This document shows positions 3,459 to 30,400 of a DNA stretch of 64,000 nucleotides, piece by piece; within the stretch, counting starts at the first letter, position 1; each line of letters begins with the position of its first letter. Made by a program: the position numbers and the translations under genes. The stretch spans positions 55,244,001-55,308,000 of the forward strand of contig NW_024704742.1 in assembly GCF_018977255.1 (NCBI RefSeq), read 5' to 3'. The notes beneath the pieces were generated by a model, which was not told the DNA's origin, ran no database searches, and saw only the letters and a program-made list of their open reading frames with translations. The DNA comes from Callorhinchus milii (lineage: Eukaryota).

Positions 3459-6400
3459 GTAAGATAGAATTATTTTATTAGGGGTTTAAAAAAATTTAGG
3501 TTAATGTTAAATTAGTGAAACTTTTATGAATCTGTAGTGATGTAGAAATTGTATTAGGCTACTTATTTTTTTCAGGACTTTAAATCTACTGAATTGAAAT
3601 ATCTAAATAAATGCAATCTGTTTAATGTTTTAGGTTGATGGCCTTTTGTCAGAACTGAACTGACAAAAGGTTATCGACCTGAAATGTTAACTCACTTTCC
3701 TCTCTTCATAGATGCTGCCTGACCTGCTGAGTTCTCCCAGCAACTTCTATGTTTATTTTAGGACAATACTCCAATGTTACAGTATGTTGCTTGTTGGCAT
3801 ATTCTCTTTCTTTGCAACATCAAGGTCTTGATAAAATCTGTACGTAGAACATGATGAATAATTGTAAAACTTGCCAGTCAGAATCACTAAAATCAATTTC
3901 AGTTCTATTGTGCTCCAGGTAGCTCAACTCTCTTAGTTTGGACTTTAGCTTGTAGGGTGGAGGACATGTCTTGCTGCTCCATGTCTTGAAGAATTAGAAG
4001 GATCTTTTAGCTGTAACCAATACTTTCAGTTGCTGAAGATCAGCTTGACTTTGTTAGGCATGTCTCATCTGAATCTGTGGCATCCCGTTAACTCCATGGG
4101 ACACATCGTGGCGCATTTGAGAGCTTCTCTCATGACTCGTAAGTGGAATTATGTTTTGGAACATTGCTCTGGACATAATATGCAGTAGATCCTTTTATTA
4201 CATAGTGGTGAAGAGAGCCCCATAAACTCTCAAACAGAGCTTGGATGGGGCACAATCGTTGACCTGTGCAATGCACAGAGCTTCCTGCGCATGGCCAGCT
4301 TTCTGTGCGACAAAATGGCGATTTTCTGGGTTCAGGTCACTGCTGATATCACTTCTTCCACGTTCATAATGTGCAGGGAATTACTTCAGTAGAGACCCAA
4401 TCATCTTTTTTAGTATTGAGAAGTTAAAATGATCTACTTCTGTGTGGTTAGATCGCCACTGACTTATTTAAGTGAACTGGCCGGCTTATTGACCGCATTT
4501 TCACGCCAGTTTTATTCAAAAGCAATCCTGAATTCTAACTAAACATAATGAAGTTTCACTGTTATTAGTAGTAACTGAGTATTTTTATAACTGAAATAAT
4601 TAACTTAAAAGAGTTTATTTCAGTAGAGTTTGTAATGTTGAATATTCTTCAGCTGCAATGAATTTTTTGTTGTAGCAAGAATTTTTCTTTTTGAATCCTG
4701 CAATCCTGTCTGCGGAGACGAGGTGCAAGAGCAAGGTATAAATCCTTTACTGAACTGCTGCAGCTCAGTCATTGTGTAACAATCTTATCCACTAATGGCT
4801 ATTATGAATATTCCAGGGTCTGTTGCTCTGAAATGGAAAATTGATCTGTTTAAAGTTTTCGTATCTTATGTTTTAACTCTGTTTGCAATTTCAAAAAGTA
4901 TAAAATACTTTTAATGGAGTTCTTCAAATAATCTCAGGTGTCTTTTTCTAAAGGAAATTGAAACATTTCATAATATGTTTTTGATTTTTCTAAATATCAA
5001 TGGTGCTACCATTTTAAAAATCCAGCGTGTTGTAAAGGGCCAAGGTCAAAGAGATGGAACATATATGTCCTATTTTTCACAGGATTGGGGTCTTCAGTAT
5101 AAGAAAGCGAATCGATCATCTGAGAAGAACAAGAAAAAGCTAAGTGCAGGCAGTGAAAGCCGACTTACAAATGATATCTCTCCTGAATCCTCTCCCGGGG
5201 TTGGGCGCCGTAGGACAAAAACTCCAAAGACTTATCCACCCACAAAGCATCCATCTCAGTTTTCTGTTCCGGACTCTGCAGAGTTTGAGAGGCTCAAGCA
5301 GCGAATAAACTTCAGTGATTTAGATGAGGTATGTAAATGTAAGCTTTTTTTGGAGGTTTTATTTTGGTAGTTATTTTATCAACTGTTCGAAATGTTAGTG
5401 ACTGATATCGTTTAAACAATTTGTGTATTTTAAATTATTTTAAAAAATGAATATATGATATAGTAAACTTATTTGTACAATGGGGTTTTCCAATTGAATT
5501 CCTAGTTTTGAGAAGTTGAACTAGCCTAAGGCTTAGTTGGGGTCTTGCCAGTTTGAGTTTGCTTTCACTTTGAGAATCAAGGTAGTAAAAAGATAGATTG
5601 TGCTAGATTGATGCAAATTCTTTTCTAAAAATGAAAAAAAGAAGGAATTATGCATGCAATAATCAGAATTAACATTCAATAATTTTTATTAATGGAAATG
5701 TGTTCTATTAAGGTAGTAATAAAGCTACAGAAATGTCAGAAGTAACATTTTTTGCCATGAGTTGAAAACCTACAAAATCATCTTTCCTGAAAAGTAATGC
5801 GTTTGCACGTACCTAAGTAGTTAAGACCAGTTACTGTATTAATTCAGTAATATTGTCAGCTTGTATCTACAGTGTAGAAATGGGAGGTGTGCTGCACTTG
5901 CCCAATCGTGCTCAGGTGACTTGTATTCCTTGGCCCAAGACAATTGGGAATGCTGCCAGGAGCTTTACAAATAAAATTAGCATCAGATTTTGGAAGCTGT
6001 TAAAATAACGTTGCTATAAAAAAANTTACAATGATTGACTTGTGCCAAAATTTTGAAAAAGTTATTCAGGATAGATTATAATGAATAGATTAAAAAACAG
6101 ATTGTATTTCATTGCCTTCTTGTGGGTACATATTTTAGGTATTGTGTTCGCAGGGCTCATCGGGCTGACAAGAGTGAATTTCATGAAAGTGACTTTGCTT
6201 GGCATGATTTTCAGTCATGGATGTTGATTGGAAGGTGTCCAAACCTGTAAACTTCAGTAACCATCTGGGAATTGATAAGTTGGTTCTGACTTGGACTTTC
6301 CACAGTTGGAAAGTTTACATATCTTCTTGTAATTCCATAATTTCTTGTGTAAATGTGTGTAATGATTTACACCCATCACACCATCGATTTTAGGATCCTC

Positions 6401-9400
6401 ACACTTGTTTTCAAATCCCTTCATGCCCTGGTATCTCCCTACCTCTCTGACCTGCTTACCCCCCAACCCACTACCTGCTGCATCCGCTTAACAGGTTCCA
6501 GCCTTCTGCGTGTCCTTCATGCCCTCCGTTCCACCATCAGTAACTGCACTTTCAACCACTACGCCCTGAAATTCTGGAACACTCTTCCTGTATCCCTCTG
6601 TCTTGCCCCATCCTTCCTTCTTTAGCGAGCTGTATTGCCCTGCGACAATTGGGAAGAACATTTTTAAAGTTTCAGCAACTGAAACTCTTTCAACACGTGG
6701 TCATTGACAGTCTTAGAGTGTAGCAAGACAGTAATACAGGATAGAAGATGGCAAAAAACACACAAAATATTTGTTACAAGCAACGATTCATTGAAATCGT
6801 GTACATTTTTGAAGTCTATTATATGCAGACTGAAGGAGGAAATAAGTTTTCAGGCGAGCAGTTTTTAGTCCAGTGGATTTGCATGGTTTTGACCTAACCA
6901 CTGCTGAATACCCAGTTGATTATCATTCCGGAAATATTCAAAAAGCAAAATGCCAACTCTGCAGCTCATGTCCTCTCCCGCATTAGGCCCCATCACCCTC
7001 ACCCGGTTCCACTGGCTTCTCATCCCCCAGAGGATAGTTCAAAATCCTTGTCCTCAAATTCAAAGCTCTCCACAAGCTTCTCCTTCCTACCTCTACGACC
7101 TGCTAACCCCATATCAACTTCTCCGCTACCTCCGCTCAGTAGACTGTGGCCTGTTCCACCATCGGAGGTCAGGCTTTAGCTTCTCTGCCTCCACGCTTTG
7201 AAACTCCATCCCACATTCCTTTTACCTCACTCCCTCCCTTGCCTCCTTCAAGGTGCGTCTCAAAAACCTCTTCGGGCACCCTCCATGATCCCAACCCCCA
7301 GCATGGGTCCAAATCGGTGACTGTCCAGCGTCTTGGGATGTCCTCCTGACATGAAAGGCGCTATACAAGTGTAATTTTGCATTGTATGCTAAATCTTAAA
7401 ACTGCTAACTGTTCTCTTCATGTGAAATTTGTGAAGAAACCATTGGTGAAGGGTTTATACATCCACAAAATATGCAGTCAATTCACTTTACAGTATATTC
7501 TGTGAAGCGCTTTGAGTTGTGTAGAAGATTCTATATCAAATTGAAGGATTATTATTATTCATTGCTTCAAAGTGTACATGGTACAAAATCTACATTTAAC
7601 CAGAAATCTAAATTAATTTTATAATAATAACCCTTGTATTTAATATAGAGTCTTATCGTGTCGTTGAGACGTCTCAAAGTGCTTCACAGAATATATTATC
7701 TGTATTTTGTGAGCAATTATAATTTAAATTGACTAATTTAAGGGAACACTTGATTAATTCTGTTCAATAACTCTTAGATTACTTGATGACTGACTCGGCT
7801 ATAAAGGAAACAATAGAAATGCAGATACATCATATTATAGTTTTTTTTAACACTGAATGCATATTGATTGTAACATTTGTTGGTTAGCGGAGCATTGGGA
7901 GTGATTCTCATGGTCGAGCGACTGCTGCTAACAACCAACGTCCACCTGTTGAAAATAGGAAGCCATTCAACTTTCTCCAACAGCAGATTAACAGCAATAA
8001 AAGCAAAGCACCCATGTTAAGTCCACGAAGCAGAGAAACGAGAACTACTGCTCAAAGACTGGATTTGTTTGTTTCTGTAACCAAGGATTCATTGCAAATT
8101 GATCAGCTCTCGCTTGCAGATGAAAGAGGAGAACCTGCTATAGAGAGCAGTCAGGTATGATATTTCAGTGGTTTAATTAAAAGTTTAATCTTAGTTTCTC
8201 TTGGCTAATAATAATAATCCTTGCATTTGTGATAGTTTGTTATTTGTGCATTTGCCCACAAATATACAATCAATTCACTTTGCAGCATATTCTGAAACAT
8301 TTTGAGACGTCTAGAAGACGTGAAAAGCGCTATACCAAATGCAAGGATTATTAGTGCAGTGCTTTTCATTTCATGACTGTAAATGTAGGTAAACGAGGCA
8401 ACCTAAGTAATGTAAATAGTGTATATTTTCTTTTGACTGGGTGATGAAGTAATACAAATAAATTAGTTTGATTAAAACATTAATTCTACAGTTGTAAAGT
8501 GTCTCAGAATAAATTGTGAATTATTGAATATCATAATCCTTGTATTTGAAACTGCCTATAAAGTCAATGTTTCTAAGTGCTTCACAGGTATTTGCTGTAA
8601 AAGTGCAATGACTATGTGTTTGTAGGTGAATGCCAACCAGTTTGTGCACAGCAATATCCTACATACAGTGATTATAAGTAAATTACTTTTTTGTAGGGGG
8701 GTGTTGGCCAGGACACTTGGAGAAACTTTCTTCAGTTTTCAACCAGTGTGGTCCACCTGGATAGGCAGATGAGACTAGTTTAAAATCTGAAGAACAAAAT
8801 TTCTGGCGATGCATTGCTCTCCAGCACTTCATCAATTGGCACCAGGCTTACATCAGCATCGTGAGGTTACAGTACAGGTTCACACTCCAGTGAACTTGTA
8901 CTATGACCTCAAAACCCTGATATAGGGCTGGTGCCAGTTGGTGCTTAATTCTGGGTGTATTTCTGCTGTGGATTCATAACTCTGGGGGGACTCTGCCCAA
9001 TCTTATTTCATTGAGCAGACAGCAGAGAGATTGCTTTCAGTGTGAGATGGATTAACTCTTAGAGTGCAGAGAAGAAAAGTCTAATTCACTGTCCTACACA
9101 AAAAAAACACAGGAAGTTAATTTGTAAATGTCATTTCAGGCAACAATGTGAATAAGATCTATCATTGATGCATACCTCCTTTCATTTTTGGAAATGATTT
9201 GATAAGCTAATTCACTGGTGCAAGCTTTAGCAGAATGAGTTTTTTTCCACTTTACATTAACTTAAATTCCGTGAGTGTAACTTTGGGGAGAACTGAAAAC
9301 CAAAAATCTAGGAGCTTTGTAAAAAGAGATTAACATTTGGAAGAACAGATGTACTGAAAGGCATCTGATGCTCAATTTTACTCTGAATCTTTTCTATGAA

Positions 9401-12400
9401 ATGTTTGCTGAAATAAGTACTCACAAAGCTCCAAAACACATTTTAAACTAAATTCGTAAAGTAGACACATCAAAGGTGATGCGGGAACTCTTGAGTAAAT
9501 GTTCATTAATAATTGTAAAGCAGTGATACCACTTTACATGTATTCCTTTTGTACAACAACAAAATTACATTTCTGAAACTCCAAGATGGCTGTGAAACTA
9601 TGTGCCTTACAAGGATAAAGTTTCTATCCTCTTGTATTTGGTAATTATCAGCATAAGATGTTTTTATGAAGCATTGTTCCCTTGCATTTTCTATTCTCTT
9701 CTCTCTTTTGCACCCAAGCTTATCAAATTTCCACAGTATTTCCTTATAGGGGTTAACTTATTCTTCAGGGAGGACAAGATGCACAACTTAGTTTGGCAGT
9801 TTCTGATTGTAAGATAATAGATTTAATTTAGCATTTGTACAACTGTGTGCCAACTATGCCCTGCTAATTGAGGTGGTCGAGACCGAATCCATGTCGGCTT
9901 TCAAGAGGTAACTGGTGGGCTATCTAAAAAGGAATAATTTGCAGGTATATATATATAATGAACAATAAATAATTCTTACGTTTGGAATTGCACCTTTGAC
10001 GTCGGAAGGACATCCCAAACCGCTTCTCTGGATATTCTCTAAAGTGCAGAGATTGTGTGTGTAGGTGAATGCGGCAGTCCATTTGAACACAGCAATGTCC
10101 CACAAATATCCATGAAGTGAATGATCAATCTTATTTGGGAGATTGTTGGTCCAAATTGCAGAAAAGGCATGTAAATTGCGCTGAATGGATGTCTCTTTCA
10201 AAGCCAGTATAGATGTGGTGGGCTGAATCGCCATCTTCTGTGCTGTAAATTTAAATTCAAGTGTGCATATATATATATTTTTAATAAATAAATCAGTGAT
10301 GTGGAACAGACTGCAGCTGAGTGTCTTTGTCAAGCTGTTTCTTAGATAATGTATGGCAATTGATTTAGGGTTGACTGTAATTCAGTCAGTCACAGATATC
10401 TAGTAGAAAGAGGCAGGTGGTTAAGGTAATTGTTCCTTGACATCAATGTGTTAGAAGATTGACCATGATGAATAAAACCAACAAAAAATATCACACAACT
10501 CCTTTTAAGATATACTTATGTTTGGATTTTGACAAATAGATTGTAAGCAGACTTATTCAGATTCGTGATTATATCTGCAAAGCTCGTTCCATGCGAGATG
10601 ATCTTATGGAGAAAAATGAAAGATCTGCTAATGTGGAGCGTCTGTCTCAGCTGATAGAACATCTAAAAGAACAGGAAAAGTCTTACATGAAATTTTTGCA
10701 GAAGATGCTGGTATGTTTGCTTTTTAAAAAATGTGTATACTTTTCACAATGAAGGCAAAGAGTTCCCACATTGCCTGTACAGCCTGATTTCACCTATTTG
10801 TATATGGGTTACAGCTTTTTGTAGCCTCCATTTCCCTTTTCACCACTTGATGTTGGTGGCTCTTGTTGGGTACAATTTCACAGATACTCAGGTGGCTATT
10901 CTGTGAATATAGACTTTTAGCAGGTCATTTAACCATGGGATATATTACAACTTAAATGTGATATGATTGCTATCCACATCCACTTATCCATTTCCAGCAT
11001 TGGTTACTATTAATAATAGTCATCCTTAAATTTGATCTTGTGCCTCTCACATCAGGAGGACATCTCAAAGCACGAGAGGAAGTGCTGTAAAGTGTAGTGA
11101 CTGGACAAACCACGGCAGCCAATTGTGCATAGCATTGTCCCTCAAACAGACATGGATTGGGTGACCAAATTATCTTTTTTTTAAGGGATTATTAGTCCCA
11201 GAAATGTGATCCGCCAGTCGACTAAACAAGTTGGTTCTACTTGCTGCAAGGTAAGCAGAGGTGTGTGGAGTAAGGAAACTTGCCCAACATTTCGCCCTGC
11301 TGGAAATCAAACCCAGGTCATCTTGCTTACCAGGTGTTTTAGCCACTAAATTACAGGACACCTGGAATTTAAATCTGACAATTAAAAAACATCCATTACT
11401 AATTGAGGTCAATACTATTGTGGATAAACAGTGTGGATAATTAGATATGTAAAATGCAAATTGGTGGCAGTCCTAACTTAAAAAAAATTCTGCCATCAGG
11501 AGTTATACTTTCACTTAATACTTAATACATTCAGTGCCCCCCCCCTCTCTCTCTCATCTCTCTATCTTTTATTCTAAATAATAATGAAGTATCCCAAATT
11601 AGGGGTAATCTATCCTAAATTAGGGGTAATCTAAATCCAGTGCCTAGTGGGTGCAAATTCACAGCAACATTCTGCTTTCAGCGAAGTAGTTGATTGGTGA
11701 TCTTGCTGAAAGTCCATGAGAATGAATGGCATAGGAAATGGGGAAAATGCCATTGAAGTAAAATAATTCAGTAGCAGATGTTATTGTTCTGTGTCATTGA
11801 TAACTAAAATCATTAAATTTATTGCATGAATCTGCTAACTTGATTTTTCAATTTAAAATGTTTCAGGCGAGAGAGAATGAAGAAGATGAAGTCGGCACAA
11901 CAGATTCAGCTGTTGGTTCTGGATCTGTGGCTGATAGCACATCTCTGAATATAGATGTACAATCTGAAGCATCAGATGCCACGGTAAGTTCTAATGTATT
12001 TATTGATAAGCTCCATAAATAACTGGTTTTAAAATACTTGAAGTTAATAGACAATTATAAAATGCAGACTAAATTTTAGTACTAGGTTGTAAGCATTGAG
12101 ACGACAGGTTACGCTGAAATATTTTCTTCACCTTTTGTTTTTGTTGTGAAGGAAGTGTGTTTAAAGTTAGACCAGATTTTGTGTAAAAGCTGTTTTTTTA
12201 AAGCTTTCGTTAGTGATTTAATTATTCACGAATGTCTTAACTAAACTGTTTGATAAAGGAGGCATCTCATAGTCTGAGAGTTCGGCCCCGCATTGAGGAC
12301 AATCTAGGAAATACAGCCTCACAAGCACAGGGTTCTTCAGTTACTTCAACTCCAAAAAGGGAAACTGACAGGCTTGGTCTGAATGACAGGCGATTCTGGC

Positions 12401-21400: not shown

Positions 21401-24400
21401 ATTGCAGATTTTGAAAAAGAGCAGTAAAATTTGAACAGGTGTGCTTGACAGGTGGAGGCATGGGAATGCAAGCATGGTAAAATGTGTAAACCTAGACCCC
21501 AAATTAACAGTGTACAGGTAAAAATGATGAATTGAGTTCATAAAAATATTAAGTGTTTTGGTTTCTTGTCATTAAAGTGATATTGGCCATTGTACTTAAT
21601 ATTTTACGTGGATCAGAAATTTAAAACTGGTAATTTAGAGGAATTGCAGCATATCTGCGGCATTATGGCAATATCTACAGTTTCTCCACAATTTCAAACG
21701 GGTTCTGCTCACATTGTTATACTTTTTAACAAAAAAAATATTGTAACACGATATCAGGCGTTTGAGAGAGAATAACTTGCAAATCTACCTATCAAACTTC
21801 GTAGTTGTTAAATCAATATTGAGTAAAGAGTTTCCACTCACTAAATTTAAAATAGTTTTTCTTTAATTTGTGATCGAGTCCAATTGCACCATGATGAGTT
21901 ATATAAAAATTATTTACTCAGGAAATTGAAAGAAGTTCACAAACGGCTAAATGAGTTGCGTGAATTGGTTGATTACTACCAGCAGACTTCAGATATGATG
22001 ACTGATGCTGTTAATGAAAACACAAAAGAGGATGAAGATGATGAGACTGAGGAAGAATCTATGTACTACTCCGATCAGGAAAATCCAGAAACTGTTACGA
22101 ACATCAGGTGGGCAAAACTAAAATTGAGTTTGAATCTGATTATTGGATACGTGTTGCTACTCATTCAATTGGTCTACCTTGGAAAAGCAACTTTGATGGG
22201 ACAGAAGAAATGGAGGGACAATCTATTGCTAGCTATTTTGTGATTAAACTTGCTTCACCAGTGAGTTTAATCATAAATAAAATGTGCTGCACGATTAGGT
22301 GTCTTGATTTAAGTTGTTGTAGTATCACCATCATCGTCTCTCTACTGTATCTTGTGATTGAGCTCAGCTCAAATTAACCCAGATGCTCTTGGAGGTTGTG
22401 AATCTGACCAAGAAGAGAAGAGCTTGTGCACACCTACTAAGAATGTTTGATAACAATAATCCTTGCATTTCATATTAGTACCTTTCATGTCAGGAACATG
22501 TCTCAAAGCGCTTTAAAATATACCCTGTAAAGTGTAGTGGCTGGGTATTCTGGAGGCGAATACTACAGCCAATTAGCAATGACCCACAAACAATCGTGAA
22601 GAGTTCATGATTGTTTGTGGGACATTGCTGAAGGGCAAATTGGCTTTATGGGACATTGCCATTGGCCAATGTCACACCAGGTGAAACTCTCCTCAGTTTA
22701 ACCTCTCTGAAGGATGTCACCTCTGGTAATGTAATACATACCCCTGCACTGCATTGGAATCTCAACCTAGACTTGTGAAGCTTCAACATGGGGCTTGAAC
22801 CCTTTCATATCTTGGAGGCAGGAGTGCAGTTGACTGAGCCAGGCTGAAACCTGGCAGTGAAGAATTTGTTGGTCACTATTCTTAAAACTTGTTACAAAAA
22901 GTATCTTCCATTTCTACAAAACAAGTTTTGTAAAGAGTGTTTAGTGGAGCCACACTGTAGACCTAAATTAGAAGGCGGAGCGTTTACATTGCTGCTATAT
23001 CTATCCATGATCTGGTTATTTCTGACCTACTTGGATCATGATCACTCATCGGGCTTTATGATCGAAGCCTCCAAACTGATAAACCAACTATATTGCCACT
23101 AGGATCTATGCCTACTACAGCATAAGCCTTTTTGTGAATTGAAATATTGGAACATGAGAGACATTTGAATTGATCCCCTCAGGTCACTGGATGTATTCTG
23201 TTGGCAGGATTAAAGCCTTCAGTACTTAATATATTTTGATTAGTATTTTTGACTTCATCTTAATTAATTGTAATGATTATGTCAATATGAGCAGTTATTG
23301 AAGACTACATTTTACATTCACATTTTAAGAACTAGTTTAACTTTTTCAGAAACCCACAAAGATGTGATAACTGGTCTGAAACCAATACTGCTTCCAGGTT
23401 GCCAGCAGTTCACGGAACCAATAACCATGATGATCGATTCCTGAACACCGACTGTGAAATCAACAATAGGCCAATAAATGTACGGAGCCTGAATGTCCCA
23501 CCTGCATCAGGTAAACCTCATATAATCTCATCTTGAATGTAACATCAGTGGTTACTGGATGCTGTTTTAACACAAACTAAATAAGTAATTCTGTTGTGAA
23601 AAGGTTTACTTTATTTTTAAAGGGTTCTGAGTAAACTTTCAATGTTGTTCTTGAGCCTTGTTTTTACTGTGATTGTCTATATTGAGTCTTTACTGAATAA
23701 CTTGCATATTGATGTGTTGCAATATTACAAGAATGTTTCTACTAATTATACAGATTCTCACTATAATGATAGTGAAAAAGATGATGACGACGATGAAGAA
23801 GAAGAAGATAGAGATGTTAATGAAGCACAAGAAGAGATTCAAGGGGAACTTGCAAGTGAGGGAACTGTATCAAGTCGGCGAAGTAGTTATGTTGAAGAAA
23901 ATGGACAGGATCTTGAAATTCAACAGAAAATAAACAGACTAAATGCTGCTAAGCAGAAGCTGAGGCAATTGCAGGAACTTGTTGCTATGGTACAGGTAAA
24001 TATCTATTTCAAGTCTGATCTTGTAACTTTTTAAGTTGTTGCTCATCTAGATATATACAAAGTATTGATAATCTGTAAGTGGAAAAGTATTTGTTATTGT
24101 ACTTTTGCCCTGATCGTGTCTAAAGATGAGCATTCTGTATATATTTACAGTTCGTTGAACAGTCATTATAGCTATGATGATTATTTTCCTTCCCTCACAT
24201 CACACACGTGTAGTACTTTTTCAACCGGGATTCTAAATAGTCACCAGGAGGGGATCCCTGGCTGAGACTGATTGTGACACCTAGATTGTTATTTTGTAGG
24301 GACATATTAACAATGCAGGTTGAGGAATGAACCCAGCAACTTTCTGAACTTTGTAAACATCTTGTGAAAACCTCTTGAGATAAAGAATATAATTAAAAGC

Positions 24401-27400
24401 AGGCAGCACAAATTTTTACAACAATTTACATTTATACAGTGCCTTTCGCAGTGGGAGAACTTTCTAAAGCGCTTAAAGGAAGGTCGTGTGTAACCAATCA
24501 TATCAAATTATTTGAAGAACAGATAAAGTAGATAAGGGAATGCAGTGAATGTATAAATAGATTTTCAGAAGACCTTTGATAAGGTGCCACGTTGCTGTTT
24601 GTGGTCAAAATAACTGGCCGGTCGTATAGCTTCTCCTTGCTACCTACATTTTCTCTTTGCAGGAAGCTCCAGATGCTACTGGTGTTAATATCCCTAATGT
24701 ATCTGGGCTTTCCTTAACTGGCGAAGATCAGAATAGTCAGCAACCAAACAACGCTAGAACAAATTCATCTAGAAGTCCAAAAGAAGTGACACTGGATGAA
24801 AAAGATAGGTAAGGGATTATTGCATGCTGGTTGCTTATGCTTGTCAGTCTTTTGAATGGAACTACCAATTTGGTGGTTAGATTTACCATAGAGGAGTAAT
24901 TTGGTGGTGTGGACTTGAACTAAGAATAGCTGGATTGCGAATGATTAAGTTACTAGTCTGTTCTTATTGGCAGGCAGGAAAGCTTAATGTAACTGGACTC
25001 GAATTGAATCTAACTCTTGAGTTCAAAGGAACATGTTTCAAGAAATTGCACAATACAGCCCAGCCCTGTACCTGTGTGAAACAATTCATTATTTTCTTAA
25101 TCGGCCTTGTAGCTCAGTGGTCAGAGTGCTTGCCTTGCAAGCGAGACACCTGGGTTCAATTCCAGGCAGGGCGAAACCTCGGGCAAGTTTCCTTACTCCA
25201 CACACCTAATAATAATTGTTCCAAAACAAAGCAATAATAAATTGGTCATTTTCAATCCACGACTGTTTGTGAGACGCTGCTGTGCGCGATTGGCTGCTGC
25301 GTTTCACCCACAAATATACGGTCAATTCACTTCACAGCATATTCTATGAAGCGTTTTGAGAAGTCTAGAAGACGTAAAAAGCTCCATATCAAATGCAAGG
25401 ATTATTATTGTGTTGGATCTCGTTTCATTATAATTCATTGTGAAATTATTTCTGATGCAAAGATTTCTACAATGTTCATTCTAATTGCAAAATTCTGGTT
25501 ATTTCAATTGATCAAATGAGAATAAATCAACAATCTTAGAACATTTTTATATTTTTAATTGATATACTTCTGGTACAGATGAAATCTCCCCTGTGCTGCA
25601 TCTTTCCTGATTGTCTTGAGGGAATTGCAGCTATCCGTCCATGTCTAAACACTGCACAGTGCAACGCATGGGAATGTTACTGCATTGACACTTGTCTCAA
25701 ATTAGTTAACATACAACTTTTTCTTATTCTAATAATCCCTTTATTGAGGGGCCATCTTATTACTTTGTACAATTCTATGGTGTGACATTGTCCTGGCTCA
25801 GGGTAACTTGAAAATTTTGTATTGAGGTAACTTCTAGAGTTTGTTTCTCAACTGTAAGGGTGTGTTGAATTAAGAATAATTCTTCTCAATATGGATTTGT
25901 TATGTAACAGAGAGAAATTCTATGAAGCTAAACTTCAACAACAGCAGAAAGAACTGAAGCAGTTGCAAGAAGAAAGAAAACGGTTGATGGAGATTCAAGA
26001 GAAGATTCAACAACTGCAGAGATCATGTCCTGACCTACAGGTGGTTGGAAGCTTTAATTAATTTTAAAATGCACTATATTCAGAAGGACATTTTGGTCAC
26101 TATTATATGAGTATGGTAATTTTTTTTTCACCCGACTACATTTAATTATTTTTTCTATATCATTTGATAAAATATTCCATTCTTGACTGCTGTTAAGATG
26201 TGTGCAAAAAAAGGATTTAAATATATGTTCCCTCTCAGGTTAAAAGAATAAAGTAAAATCATGTAAATTGATAATGCCACTAATTATTGGATTTTAGTGT
26301 GTAAGAATGTCATACTTAAACATTATGTAATCATTGGTATGCCAATGATGTGGTCAGATGGTTTCAAAACACATGCATGTTTCTGCTTTATAATAACTTG
26401 GCGGTTGTAATCGCTTTAAAGTATGATGGAGATTGTTGTTATATATGATTGTACACTATGTATGATTGTACTTTTTTAATGTATGCAGTTATCAACATCG
26501 AGTATAGGAAACCTGTCGAAAATAAAAGTGCCGGTGGTTACGTCTACTCCTGCAGCCAATGGACAAGGTGCAACAGCAAAGGCTTTGCCTGATCCAATTG
26601 CTGCACCGCCTCCTGACAATGAGGTAATCTCTAAATTTAAATGTGTTCTTAGATTTTGGTTTGTAAGTTGCATCTGCATTTAGGAGTTAAAATCGGACAC
26701 CTTTTCAGGTATATATCATATTGTAATATTAGATTGCTCTGCTTCTTGAAATGTTGGTACATAGCCTGTTATTGTTATTCTCAAAATGTATGGCCCTGTA
26801 ATTTTGTTTGTACATAATAGCTGTGGTCTGAGATGCGCCGACACCAAATCCTTCGTGAAGAGTTGCGCCAAAGAAGAAAGCAACTTGAAGCCTTGATGGC
26901 TGAGCATCAACGTCAAAAAACACTGACTGAAACCACTTCCATCACTGCCGCATCTATAAAAAGTGATGGGGCGGAAACACAGGGAACTCAGCAACTCAGC
27001 AGGACTGAAAGGTTAGAGGCAAATTTATTTGATTAAGCCTTTAACCTTCGTCACATCCATGTTTCCTAGAATTGTGTTGATTAGACTTGTAACAATTGTT
27101 AATCGTAAGGATGTTTAGATGTTCAGTGTCTCTTGACTAATAGTAACACGTAAAACTTTAAAAACTATTCTATGAATTCTGTTCCTTGCTGTATCTAGAT
27201 AGCTCTTGGAACTATTTATTTTTATTAATTGCTTACAATATAATAGGTCTTTCTAATAAAATGCCCTCAAAATGAGTTGTTCACAAATTGTGCAAATTAG
27301 CTGCCATGTTTGCTTCCAATATACAGTCCCTATACTTTACAGTGATGCATACAGCACATTTTCATTAAATAAAGGTGAGCGCGCTTCTTAATGAGTTAAC

Positions 27401-30400
27401 GTGGTGATTATTAATTCAGGCCTCTATTAATGTTGGCAGGACCACAGCTACTTGGGGCGGTTCAACTCAAGGTGCACTGGATGATGATGATGATGAAGAG
27501 GAAGAAAACATTGGTGGTGGTGGTGATGATGATGACGACGACTATCCATCTGATGAAATTGTACAAGCAGAAGAAGAAGAAGAACTTGAGACAAGTTCTC
27601 ATGAAACATACACAGTTTATCCAAGTCCAACTAGAAGTCAAGGAGCACGTAATTCGAGAGGTTTTAGGCACAGGTAAAATAATACTGTGGATTCCTCCAG
27701 TTGTTTCCCAGAGATTTGTTTTTTTTATATTACTAGAATTTATATTATTGATATGATTGTACATGATATAGATACACACATTTACTTAATGTTTAAGTAT
27801 GGCATTCGGCTAAATACTAAAATCCAGTAATTAGTGACATTGATTTACATGATTTTACTTTATTCTTTTAACCTGCGAGGGAACATTTATTTACATACAT
27901 TTTTTGCACATATCTCAACAGTAGTCAAGAATTGAATATTTTATCAAATGATGTTTTATCAAAGCAATTTTGCTTTAAATTTGTTTCACAATTTAGACTA
28001 TTATTTTCTCCTTTCTACCTCATTCCAATACCAAAATCGCAAGACTTTTGTGGTATGTACTTGATTGCAGCTTTTAAACCAGTTTTCATTGACATTTAAC
28101 TGGTGGCTAAATACTTGCTGTGCTTTCCCTTCTCATCCCACACACTCTTCTGTAGGTTAAAGAATAAACAACCATATTCTGCAGATGGGAACTATCGTTC
28201 TTTTCCAAAACATAAACAACGGAATGTTAGCATGCGACGTCAAGAGAATCTGCGGTGGGCAGCAGATCTCTCCTATGTAGAGGAACGAGAACACTGGCAG
28301 GAACAAGTAAATCAATTGACCAGACAGCTGGAATTCAGTACAAACATGTGTCACACCCTAATGCAGGACCAGCAGGTAAGTTGCTGTACTGGGGGATTGT
28401 GTGTAACCATGCCTTCTTCATTCTGTTAGAACCGTAGAAACATACTCCCTTTTCCAGGGTGTTCTGCTGATAATCCATTTAATCATTCAATGACAAAAAA
28501 CTGTTTTGAAGGTTTGATTGAAAATTGCTAAAGTTCAGTTAAAAGCATTTCTTTGTGATGGCACGAATCCCAACCTTGAATTGCTTTAGACAGGCATTCC
28601 TGTCTAAAGCTCCTGTGGAGTCCTGTAGCTCAGTTAGAGCACTCGCCTCGCAAGCGGCAGGGTGAAACCTTGGGCAAGTTTCCTTACGCCACACACCTGA
28701 CAATAATTCCTCAAGAAAAAAAACAATAATAAATCACGACCATTTGTGGGACACTGCTGTACGAAATTGGCTGCCGTATTTTGCCCGCAAATATACAGTC
28801 AATTCACTTTACAGTCTATTCTGTGAAGTGCTTTGAGACATCTAGAAGACGTGAAAAGCGCTATATCAAATGCAAGGATTATTATTCCAAACTACAGTTA
28901 GAAAAGAGCCTGTATCATTGCTTCATAAAGCCAGAAAAGGCTGTCTGGCCACAGAACTGTTTGTGAAATTCATTAAGTTTAAAAAAAAATCAATTAAAAA
29001 AATTACTACGCCAGTTTTCCCCTGTACTGTCGTTTGTTCCTGTAACGGAAAATAATGTCTGATCAAAGAATTGATGTGCTATTTAGCAATTATTTTCTTT
29101 CATGCTGGCTAAATTCCAGCAGTACACAAACACGCAGTCTGAGGTCCCCAAACTTTGACTCTTGACCAATTTGTGGCTAATTCTCAAAAATAGAATCTCC
29201 GACAATACAGCAGTACCCCAGCATTGCACTCATGTCACCTTGGACTGTAAGCTCAACCCAAAATAAGGAGACTCCTATTCAAAGTAAATGGCCGTTGCAC
29301 TCGACAGTTTGTGAAAATGTCTTGTTTGTATCTAAAAGATACACAAGCTAGCAACATAAAAGAGCTGCCAATTATTTTCTTCTGAGCATCTGTAAGTGCC
29401 CGATGCTGTATAATTGTTTGCTGAAAGTTGCCATCGAAAGTTTTATCATCTGAACCTTTTTTGTTGACTTTCTCTTGACTCCATGAGATTCAAACAAAAT
29501 GTTCAATTTACAAAGGGGTACCATTTTAAAAGTTAATTCATTTTACTGACCCTTGATCATATTGCAGTTTAGTATTGTATACATCTGAAAATAATTTTCT
29601 TTATTTTTATACAGGCACTTTCTTACCTTCTGCAGACTTTCCTAACTGGTCCTTACAATATAATGCCTAGTAATGTTGGCTCACCACAAGTGCACATCAT
29701 AATGCACCAGTTAAATCAGTGTTACACACAATTGGCTTGGCAACAGAACAATGTGCAAAGGTGTGTTTATGGTCTTAGATAAGTTGTGCAGAAATATATC
29801 TTAACTTTTGCTACTACTTGAAAAATTTGTAACATGGCAATTAGTTTAGAAAAGTAAGACAATTAGCATGTTTTGTAGAAAAACTGATTTGTATTAAAGT
29901 AAGCAGTGGCATTTTATAAAAGTTTTGTTTTGCACAGAAGTTTAGTGTGGGTTTCTGATACTTTATTCCTACTGGGAACGAGGAGAGTTGTCCAGCTTTG
30001 TGCGCCATTATCCAAGACTCATGTTACTCAAATCCTTATCACATGTACATAGTTAAAATATTAATGAGGACCTTCTGAATTGCTGTTTAGCTAGTAAGGG
30101 AGCCTTTTGCTGCTTTTTCATCCCTAGTTTGCCTTCAGAGTTATTGTAATACTTTTGGACTCTCGCATATGTTGCTGGTTTCCATCAGAAACACTTTTTT
30201 GGGGATGTCTACTACCCAAATAATACAGCAAAAAAGACCCAGAAGCAAAGCCACCTGATATTCAGACACATCTCGCAGCGTCTAGTACTGAGTAATGAAA
30301 ATCACAAAAATAAATTATGAGTAGTGGTTGTCTCATGGCATTGCTATACTTATGAGCTAAATGTCAATTAATTTGCACAAATACAGCACATTGTTACAAG

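What the first reader, a model, noticed from the sequence alone, without database searches (positions are those of the whole stretch)
26157..27954. Roughly 170-bp intronic inverted repeat brackets PCM1 exons 17-19: candidate circRNA or exon-looping element
Seen: 26157-26330 (intron 16) is the reverse complement of 27782-27954 (intron 19). It includes a perfect 33-nt core, and several differences remain G-U pairable on the sense strand. The arms sit about 160 nt upstream of the exon 17 acceptor and about 110 nt downstream of the exon 19 donor. They are AT-rich and resemble none of the SINE, L2 or CR1 families in the window. Established: reverse-complementary intronic matches flanking exons promote back-splicing and form ADAR substrates. 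Inference: the pre-mRNA folds into a long stem that loops out three exons. This would give a 560-nt circle (135+191+234), or exon 16-to-20 skipping, which is out of frame (phase 0 to phase 2) and would trigger NMD. A26195 faces C27916, a possible editing site.
Basis: partly seen in the sequence, partly recalled or inferred. Interest (0 to 1): 0.75.

Follow-up and report, generated by a model that had tools for sequence, protein, structure and literature searches.

The report
Inverted intron copy around PCM1 exons
A 172-base piece of one intron of the elephant-shark PCM1 gene has a backwards twin three exons away, so the RNA could fold into a loop, but it looks like an ordinary DNA-copying scar and the transcripts seen are spliced normally.

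Summary
The inverted repeat is real: 26159-26330 against 27782-27952, 152 of 169 aligned bases matching, in the introns either side of three PCM1 exons of Callorhinchus milii. It is not a repeat family (2 genome-wide matches, against 6573 candidates for a SINE control), and a DNA run argues against mis-assembly. It folds into a strong stem in silico. Nothing shows function. The differences between arms look neutral: 6 G-U, 2 A-C, 9 transversions, and duplex energy is matched by 62% of neutral simulations. RNA contigs show canonical splicing through exons 16-20; no back-splice, skip or editing was listed, but contigs and a cut table cannot exclude minor forms. Such pairs are common here: 4 non-repeat local inverted pairs in 200 kb of control DNA, one inserted into a SINE. 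The left arm carries a 6-nt repeat at both ends and abuts an 8-bp hairpin, which fits a template-switch insertion. Best reading: a neutral templated inverted insertion that may leak some circular or skipped RNA. The scan noted similar cases earlier in this genome (TBC1D9, CLNK, SEL1L3) and in others. Conservation in other cartilaginous fishes could not be tested.

The parts
26159..26330 (+). Left arm of the inverted repeat, in intron 16 (26041-26488); probably the inserted copy (inferred)
   Evidence: two matches genome-wide
27782..27952 (-). Right arm, in intron 19 (27674-28155); probably the template (inferred)
   Evidence: spanned with both flanks by one DNA-like contig 27569-28180
26236..26268 (+). 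Perfect 33-nt core of the left arm (partner 27843-27875); length expected by chance at this divergence
   Evidence: P = 0.25; 2 matches genome-wide at up to 3 mismatches, 0 for the reversed control
26159..26164 (+). 6-nt motif shared with the template end and repeated at 26330-26335: microhomology / target-site-like duplication
   Evidence: P about 0.01 within 2 nt of both ends, 0.096 with looser ends; noticed after the fact
26330..26349 (+). Perfect 8-bp hairpin with 4-nt loop starting at the last base of the left arm
   Evidence: 0.25-0.28% of positions have such a stem starting within 3 nt; -6.4 kcal/mol as DNA
25911..26040 (+). PCM1 exon 16 (ends in phase 0)
26489..26623 (+). PCM1 exon 17, 135 nt
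26821..27011 (+). PCM1 exon 18, 191 nt
   Evidence: (100% to four C. milii PCM1 entries)
27440..27673 (+). PCM1 exon 19, 234 nt
   Evidence: 234 nt between exon 18 and exon 20 in contig 15 of run X5; GT..AG joints at both ends
28156..28375 (+). PCM1 exon 20 (starts in phase 2)

Best explanation
The repeat is the scar of one local templated inverted insertion. A polymerase (replication or break repair) paused near the small hairpin in intron 16, switched by a 6-nt microhomology to the opposite strand about 1.6 kb downstream in intron 19, copied about 170 nt backwards and returned, duplicating the 6 nt. The two arms have since drifted apart neutrally (about 11% corrected divergence). In pre-mRNA that still holds both introns they can zip into a roughly 155-bp stem, so a small by-product flow into a 560-nt circle, an NMD-bound exon 16-20 product or A-to-I editing is plausible (about even odds), but the normal mRNA dominates and the structure is not maintained by selection. 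Shown: two copies only, neutral-looking substitutions, canonical major mRNA, similar pairs in control DNA. Inferred: the mechanism, which arm is new, and any by-product RNA.
For: Two matches genome-wide for either arm or either whole intron and for the core at 3 mismatches, against 6573 candidates for a SINE. Substitutions 6 G-U / 2 A-C / 9 transversions fit the background spectrum (chi-square p = 0.24), and 62% of 400 neutral simulations give an equally or more stable duplex. In 20 spaced 10-kb control stretches: 4 non-repeat inverted pairs of 40 nt or more and 6 direct ones; one (L023, 116 nt, 92%, 2.2 kb apart, 2 matches genome-wide) interrupts a SINE copy, where other copies have about 33-50 nt in place of 132-146. 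Junction features at the left arm. Inverted insertions near their template with junction microhomology occur as germline variants in humans (PMC8421209, passages). Canonical junctions at depth 171-239 and one unbroken 1421-nt contig across exons 15-20.
Against: No outgroup: the empty ancestral site was not seen, so direction and age are inferred. The junction features were noticed after the fact, are not independent of each other, and none of the 4 control pairs shows an 8-bp hairpin at a junction or a 6-nt end repeat. The human study only looked for templates within 100 bp, whereas the arms here are 1451 nt apart. Seventeen substitutions give little power, so weak selection would be missed; the G-U to A-C ratio leans the way selection predicts (6 to 2). 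It is the highest-scoring of the 15 listed inverted pairs that bracket five exons or fewer, of 54 in the gene. The control sample is small and from one chromosome.
Confidence: 0.72

Rival explanations
1. Whatever its origin, the stem is used and kept by selection: it drives a regulated 560-nt circPCM1 and/or loops out exons 17-19 to send transcripts to NMD, tuning PCM1 dose.
For: Arms lie 158 and 108 nt from the back-splice sites; 155 of 172 left-arm bases pair with the right arm in the minimum-energy fold of 26041-28155, duplex -203 kcal/mol against about -20 for each arm alone. Inverted repeats of 30-40 nt suffice in plasmids (PMC4201285, passages); such matches promote both back-splicing and skipping in C. 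elegans (bioRxiv 2021.02.28.433292, passages). Skipping gives a stop 9 nt into exon 20.
Against: Neutral substitution pattern and energy. No back-splice or skip among the 15 joints shown, and unbroken canonical contigs in X1 and X5. Both flanking introns are short (448 and 482 nt), so intron 16 may often be spliced before the right arm is made (inference). A cross-mammal study argues that most such circles are splicing by-products (PMC8516420, abstract and passages).
Confidence: 0.1
2. The arms are two old copies of a rare or extinct small transposon family that landed independently in opposite orientation.
For: The genome search loses diverged copies: it missed the known 81% partner of the L013 arm. 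The 6-nt end repeat of the left arm could be a transposon target-site duplication.
Against: The arms are 90% alike, yet no third copy at similar identity exists; two independent insertions of a two-member family within 1.5 kb are very unlikely. No terminal inverted repeats or internal palindrome in either arm, no end repeat at the right arm; no hit of a two-arm profile in 264 kb beyond one E = 0.084 match.
Confidence: 0.06
3. The pair is older than it looks and is kept alike by gene conversion between the arms, or is a relic of an inversion with staggered breaks that was later reverted.
For: Close inverted repeats can convert each other (general knowledge); the mismatches leave runs of 19 and 33 identical bases.
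Against: The longest run is within chance (P = 0.25). The enclosed exons have the gene's own orientation, so an inversion origin needs a second, reverting event through a gene-disrupting intermediate.
Confidence: 0.1
4. One arm is an assembly artefact.
For: None found; no single listed contig spans the whole left arm.
Against: The arms differ at 17 places. Four further runs hold 0.86-0.94 of the sampled words of 25900-28400. In X12 one contig spans 27569-28180, and two others cover 25386-26262 and 26312-26543 without differences; an X1 contig bridges 26236-26431.
Confidence: 0.02

Closest known systems
Reverse-complementary intronic sequences flanking circularizing exons (ZKSCAN1, HIPK3, EPHB4 inverted Alus; GCN1L1 inverted DNA-transposon repeats; Liang and Wilusz 2014, PMC4201285, passages read)
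   Same: Complementary stretches in the two introns next to a block of exons, close to the back-splice sites, far longer than the 30-40 nt minimum.
   Different: Arms are single-locus DNA, not transposon copies; no circle has been seen; flanking introns are short.
C. elegans zip-2 reverse complementary matches (Cao, bioRxiv 10.1101/2021.02.28.433292, abstract and passages read)
   Same: One pair of matches could promote both back-splicing and skipping of the enclosed exons.
   Different: zip-2 matches are 13 nt, conserved in five species and shown by deletion; here conservation is untested and the differences between arms look neutral.
Microhomology-mediated templated insertions (MMB-TI; PMC8421209, passages read)
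   Same: Inverted copy of a nearby template with microhomology at a junction, carried in the germline.
   Different: Longer (172 nt), template 1.45 kb away (that study searched within 100 bp), old and diverged; ancestral empty site not seen.
circRNA as by-product of young inverted repeats (Gruhl et al. 2021, PMC8516420, abstract and passages read)
   Same: A probably lineage-specific inverted pair that decays without sign of selection.
   Different: The pair arose by local copying rather than by transposon insertion; species is a chimaera, not a mammal.

Membership tests
Repeat-driven circRNA locus | Reverse-complementary sequences in both flanking introns | tested here: met
Repeat-driven circRNA locus | Arms can form a stable duplex in the pre-mRNA | tested here: met
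   in silico only: 155 of 172 bases paired; co-transcriptional timing not modelled
Repeat-driven circRNA locus | Back-splice junction present in RNA | tested here: inconclusive
   none among 15 of 853 joints shown; contigs drop minor forms; library type not on record
Repeat-driven circRNA locus | Circle depends on pairing of the arms | not testable with these tools
   needs minigene or genome editing
Selected long-range RNA structure controlling skipping (zip-2 type) | Substitutions biased toward keeping pairs | tested here: not met
   G-U vs A-C p = 0.14; spectrum p = 0.24; energy matched by 62% of neutral simulations; low power
Selected long-range RNA structure controlling skipping (zip-2 type) | Conserved across species with compensatory changes | not testable with these tools
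   no relative genomes offered; the one PCM1 locus found elsewhere lacks intron 16
Selected long-range RNA structure controlling skipping (zip-2 type) | Skipped transcript detectable | tested here: inconclusive
   not listed; an NMD target would be rare
MITE / interspersed repeat pair | Many copies in the genome | tested here: not met
   against control; diverged copies near 80% can be missed
MITE / interspersed repeat pair | Terminal inverted repeats within each element | tested here: not met
   no self-palindrome within either arm
Templated inverted insertion (template switch) | Single inverted copy close to its template | tested here: met
   two copies, 1451 nt apart
Templated inverted insertion (template switch) | Microhomology at the junctions | tested here: inconclusive
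   6-nt repeat at both ends of the left arm (P 0.01-0.1) and adjoining hairpin; post hoc
Templated inverted insertion (template switch) | Empty ancestral site in an outgroup or other allele | not testable with these tools
   no outgroup; shown indirectly only for control pair L023
ADAR substrate | A-to-G changes in RNA over the duplex | tested here: inconclusive
   X1 contig 26236-26431 has 0 other letters over 95 nt of the left arm, depth 7, may be DNA; A26195 not covered by a listed RNA piece; 34 rows of differences not shown

The most novel reading that the evidence does not exclude
A transposon-independent, locally copied inverted repeat has been recruited as a splicing switch that makes a regulated circPCM1 and an NMD-bound skipped mRNA; more broadly, local template-switch insertions, which may number in the thousands in this genome, would be a steady source of new exon-looping structures in a slowly evolving vertebrate.
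Probability: 0.08. Interest if true: 0.55.

Novelty: new member of a known kind. Interest (0 to 1): 0.2.

Why it matters
As it stands, little: it is one more exon block bracketed by complementary intron sequence, with no sign of use. It is a clean candidate locus if anyone profiles circular RNA in cartilaginous fishes (a search for 'Callorhinchus milii' with 'circular RNA' listed 5 of 7 matching papers, none on that subject by title or abstract start). If the stem were shown to be used and conserved, it would be a case of a splicing switch born from a local copying error rather than from transposons, acting on the main centriolar-satellite scaffold. The more general point is that single-locus local inverted copies look frequent in this genome, which lowers the surprise of each one.

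Tried and rejected
No listed sequencing run is on record as RNA; X1-X8 are guessed to be RNA and all are assembled contigs. Laying X1, X5, X8 and X12 on 24550-29850 included two SINE copies that swamped the tables: 838 joints and 34 difference rows were not shown, and even the exon 17-18 joint visible in the pieces table is missing from the joints table, so absence from the tables is weak. In X8 the exon 18-19 contig has depth 106 against 22 and 10 for its neighbours and exon 17 is uncovered; contig depth cannot rank parts of a gene, and a 17-19 circle would cover exon 17, so I drew nothing from it. Rfam on 25900-28400: 7 matches, all far below gathering scores, none over the left arm and one grazing the right arm's end: not a known RNA gene. 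A profile of the two arms could be run only over the 264 kb held, not the whole genome. The control sample stayed at 200 kb, all on one chromosome. Metagenome scan for orthologous introns: 3 loci of 594 candidate stretches, one a distant PCM1 fragment that starts inside exon 18 and so lacks intron 16; its matches to this region at E below 0.05 are exonic only: uninformative. The 120 homologues were found with exon 18, so they cannot show isoforms lacking it. Open frames across the circle junction reach 143 codons from an ATG and the circle is not a multiple of three: no endless frame. Literature: 'PCM1' with 'circRNA' gave 38 papers, 20 listed, none on a PCM1 circle by title or abstract start; the one I opened (PMC8248110) names PCM1 only in a reference; 'PCM1, alternative splicing, exon skipping, centriolar satellite' gave 6, none on this block by title or abstract start. 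I opened no supplements; circRNA lists in supplements may well contain PCM1 circles of other species. I did not establish whether the control pairs bracket exons (ORF list for L013 was not followed up).
Full report
Observation. The repeat is there. Local alignment of intron 16 against the reverse complement of intron 19 gives 26159-26330 against 27782-27952, 152 matches in 169 columns, 17 substitutions and 5 gap bases, score 237 where 500 composition-matched resamples reach at most 38. The arms are 26-27% GC and 1451 nt apart. The 33-nt perfect core exists but is no longer than shuffling the mismatches gives (P = 0.25). A26195 faces C27916 as stated.

Gene context. The exon at 26821-27011 is 100% identical to four entries labelled Callorhinchus milii PCM1, and tblastn maps about 35 coding blocks along the + strand. 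Boundaries are 25911-26040, 26489-26623, 26821-27011, 27440-27673 and 28156-28375; introns 16-19 are 448, 197, 428 and 482 nt. The arms lie 158 nt before the exon 17 acceptor and 108 nt after the exon 19 donor. The circle would be 560 nt; exon 16 joined to exon 20 stops 9 nt into exon 20, while skipping exon 17 or 19 alone keeps the frame.

Copy number. Each arm, and each whole intron, finds only the two arms in the 992-Mb genome; the core with up to 3 mismatches finds 2 places and the reversed control none. A SINE from the window gives 6573 candidates in the same search. The search has a limit: it missed an 81% partner in a control case, so old diverged copies are not excluded. Neither arm has terminal inverted repeats or a credible Rfam match.

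Assembly. Four runs of about 890 million letters hold 0.86-0.94 of the sampled words. In X12, which shows no spliced joints, one contig spans 27569-28180 across the right arm, and two cover 25386-26262 and 26312-26543 without differences; an X1 contig covers 26236-26431. Mis-assembly is very unlikely.

RNA evidence. Three runs guessed to be RNA (X1, X5, X8; contigs only; 3 of the 10 such runs listed) were laid on 24550-29850. GT..AG joints 15-16, 16-17, 18-19, 19-20 and 20-21 appear at depth 171-239 in X1 and X5. In X5 one 1421-nt contig runs from exon 15 through exon 20 with exactly 234 nt in the place of exon 19. In X1 the mRNA contigs break at the exon 19 start and in exon 21, where intron-containing contigs join, and not at the exon 17 acceptor or exon 19 donor. 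No back-splice or 16-20 skip is among the 15 joints shown, but 838 were not shown because SINE copies swamped the table, and assemblers remove short low-depth junction paths (my knowledge). So canonical splicing is the major form in these libraries and minor forms are untested. The only listed RNA-like piece over an arm (95 nt of the left arm, depth 7) shows no change from the genome; it may be DNA.

Can it pair? Yes in silico: 155 of 172 left-arm bases pair with the right arm in the minimum-energy fold of 26041-28155; duplex -203 kcal/mol at 37 C and -303 at 10 C, against about -20 and -48 for each arm alone. It is the highest-scoring of the 15 listed inverted pairs bracketing five exons or fewer, of 54 pairs of 60 nt or more in the gene. 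Any recent inverted copy would fold like this, so it is not evidence of function. Intron 16 is short and may be spliced before the right arm is transcribed (inference).

Is pairing selected? On the sense strand 6 differences are G-U, 2 are A-C and 9 are transversions. G-U against A-C gives p = 0.14; against the background transition share of 0.61 from 647 repeat pairs the three classes give p = 0.24; and 62% of 400 simulations that scatter 17 neutral changes over the arms are as stable or more. Power is low, but nothing points to selection. Corrected divergence is 0.108, near the 7-10% seen between the control SINE and its closest copies, which suggests a lineage-specific age (inference). Liang and Wilusz found that G-U wobbles can inhibit circularization (PMC4201285, passages), so they do not favour the circle either.

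How unusual is it? In 20 evenly spaced 10-kb stretches of the same chromosome there are 195 inverted and 170 direct local matches made of repeats, and 4 inverted and 6 direct pairs of 40 nt or more not matched elsewhere in the sample. Of the 4, two were confirmed as two-copy genome-wide (L023, L012), one returned only itself (L013) and one was not searched (L006). L023 resembles the PCM1 case (116 nt, 92%, 2209 nt apart) and one arm interrupts a SINE: other copies have about 33-50 nt where it has 132-146. That shows local inverted copies being pasted into ordinary repeat DNA. One pair of 100 nt or more in 200 kb would scale to thousands per genome, with a very wide margin (my arithmetic, one chromosome). 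The PCM1 pair is longer than any of the four. Earlier notes of this scan describe similar local inverted copies at TBC1D9, SEL1L3 and CLNK in this genome (unchecked by me).

Origin. The first 6 nt of the left arm recur at 26330-26335 (P about 0.01 within 2 nt of both ends, 0.096 with looser ends), and a perfect 8-bp hairpin starts at 26330 (0.25-0.28% of positions; about 1% over four junctions). These two features overlap, were noticed after the fact and are absent from the four control pairs. They fit a polymerase pausing at the hairpin, switching by microhomology to the opposite strand in intron 19, copying about 170 nt and returning; the hairpin could instead be a snap-back product of the same event. 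Inverted insertions near their template with junction microhomology are described as human germline variants (PMC8421209, passages), though searched there within 100 bp. Without an outgroup the direction is inferred.

Comparison with what is known. It is laid out like a repeat-driven circRNA locus (PMC4201285) and like the C. elegans matches that promote both back-splicing and skipping (bioRxiv 2021.02.28.433292, passages). It cannot be filed as either: no product was seen, the bias toward keeping pairs was tested and not met, and conservation could not be tested (no relative genomes; uninformative). Gruhl et al. argue that many circles are by-products of young inverted repeats (PMC8516420, abstract and passages), which is the reading that fits here if a circle exists. 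I found no paper on this element or on a PCM1 circle at these exons in the searches (listings only, one paper opened, no supplements).

Verdict. Real, single-locus and able to pair; most likely a neutral templated inverted insertion (0.72), with about even odds of some by-product circle or skipping and about 0.1 for a selected switch. New member of a known kind; interest 0.2.

Noticed in passing
L023:7263-7377 and 9587-9700 (G000:C1:108007263-108009700): Two-copy inverted pair, 116 nt, 92%, 2.2 kb apart; the left arm interrupts a SINE copy, a clear case of a local inverted insertion.
   Followed up: partly
L013:2406-2494 and 5095-5183; L012:1651-1719 and 1972-2041; L006:443-482 and 2046-2085: Three further non-repeat local inverted pairs at 81-85% identity. 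Between the L013 arms, near 4727-4823, is a stretch with a pyrimidine-rich acceptor and a GT donor that looks like an exon by eye; not tested.
   Followed up: partly
window 25909-28372, run X8: The exon 18-19 contig has depth 106 against 22 (exons 15-16) and 10 (exon 20), and exon 17 is uncovered. Contig depth cannot rank parts of a gene; worth a look in raw reads for an exon 18-19 circle.
   Followed up: no
window 27660-27673: Public C. milii protein models P0001-P0004 lack the last two codons of exon 19, whereas RNA contigs support the donor at 27673 and a 234-nt exon; the models look slightly wrong here.
   Followed up: partly
window 27119-27467 and 28861-29641: Low-depth contigs in run X1 run from intron 18 into exon 19 and from intron 20 into exon 21: unspliced RNA or DNA in the library.
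   Followed up: no
window 27605 and 27663: Two differences from the reference inside exon 19 in run X12 (A to G, T to C), one contig at depth 6: probable alleles.
   Followed up: no
window 8830-8943 and 22575-22629: Self-complementary intronic stretches (114 nt at 74%, 55 nt at 87%) seen in the window self-comparison.
   Followed up: no
protein P0070: A tortoise PCM1 model joins the exon 16 and exon 18 sequences directly, lacking the in-frame exon 17 segment; may be a cassette exon or a model error.
   Followed up: no
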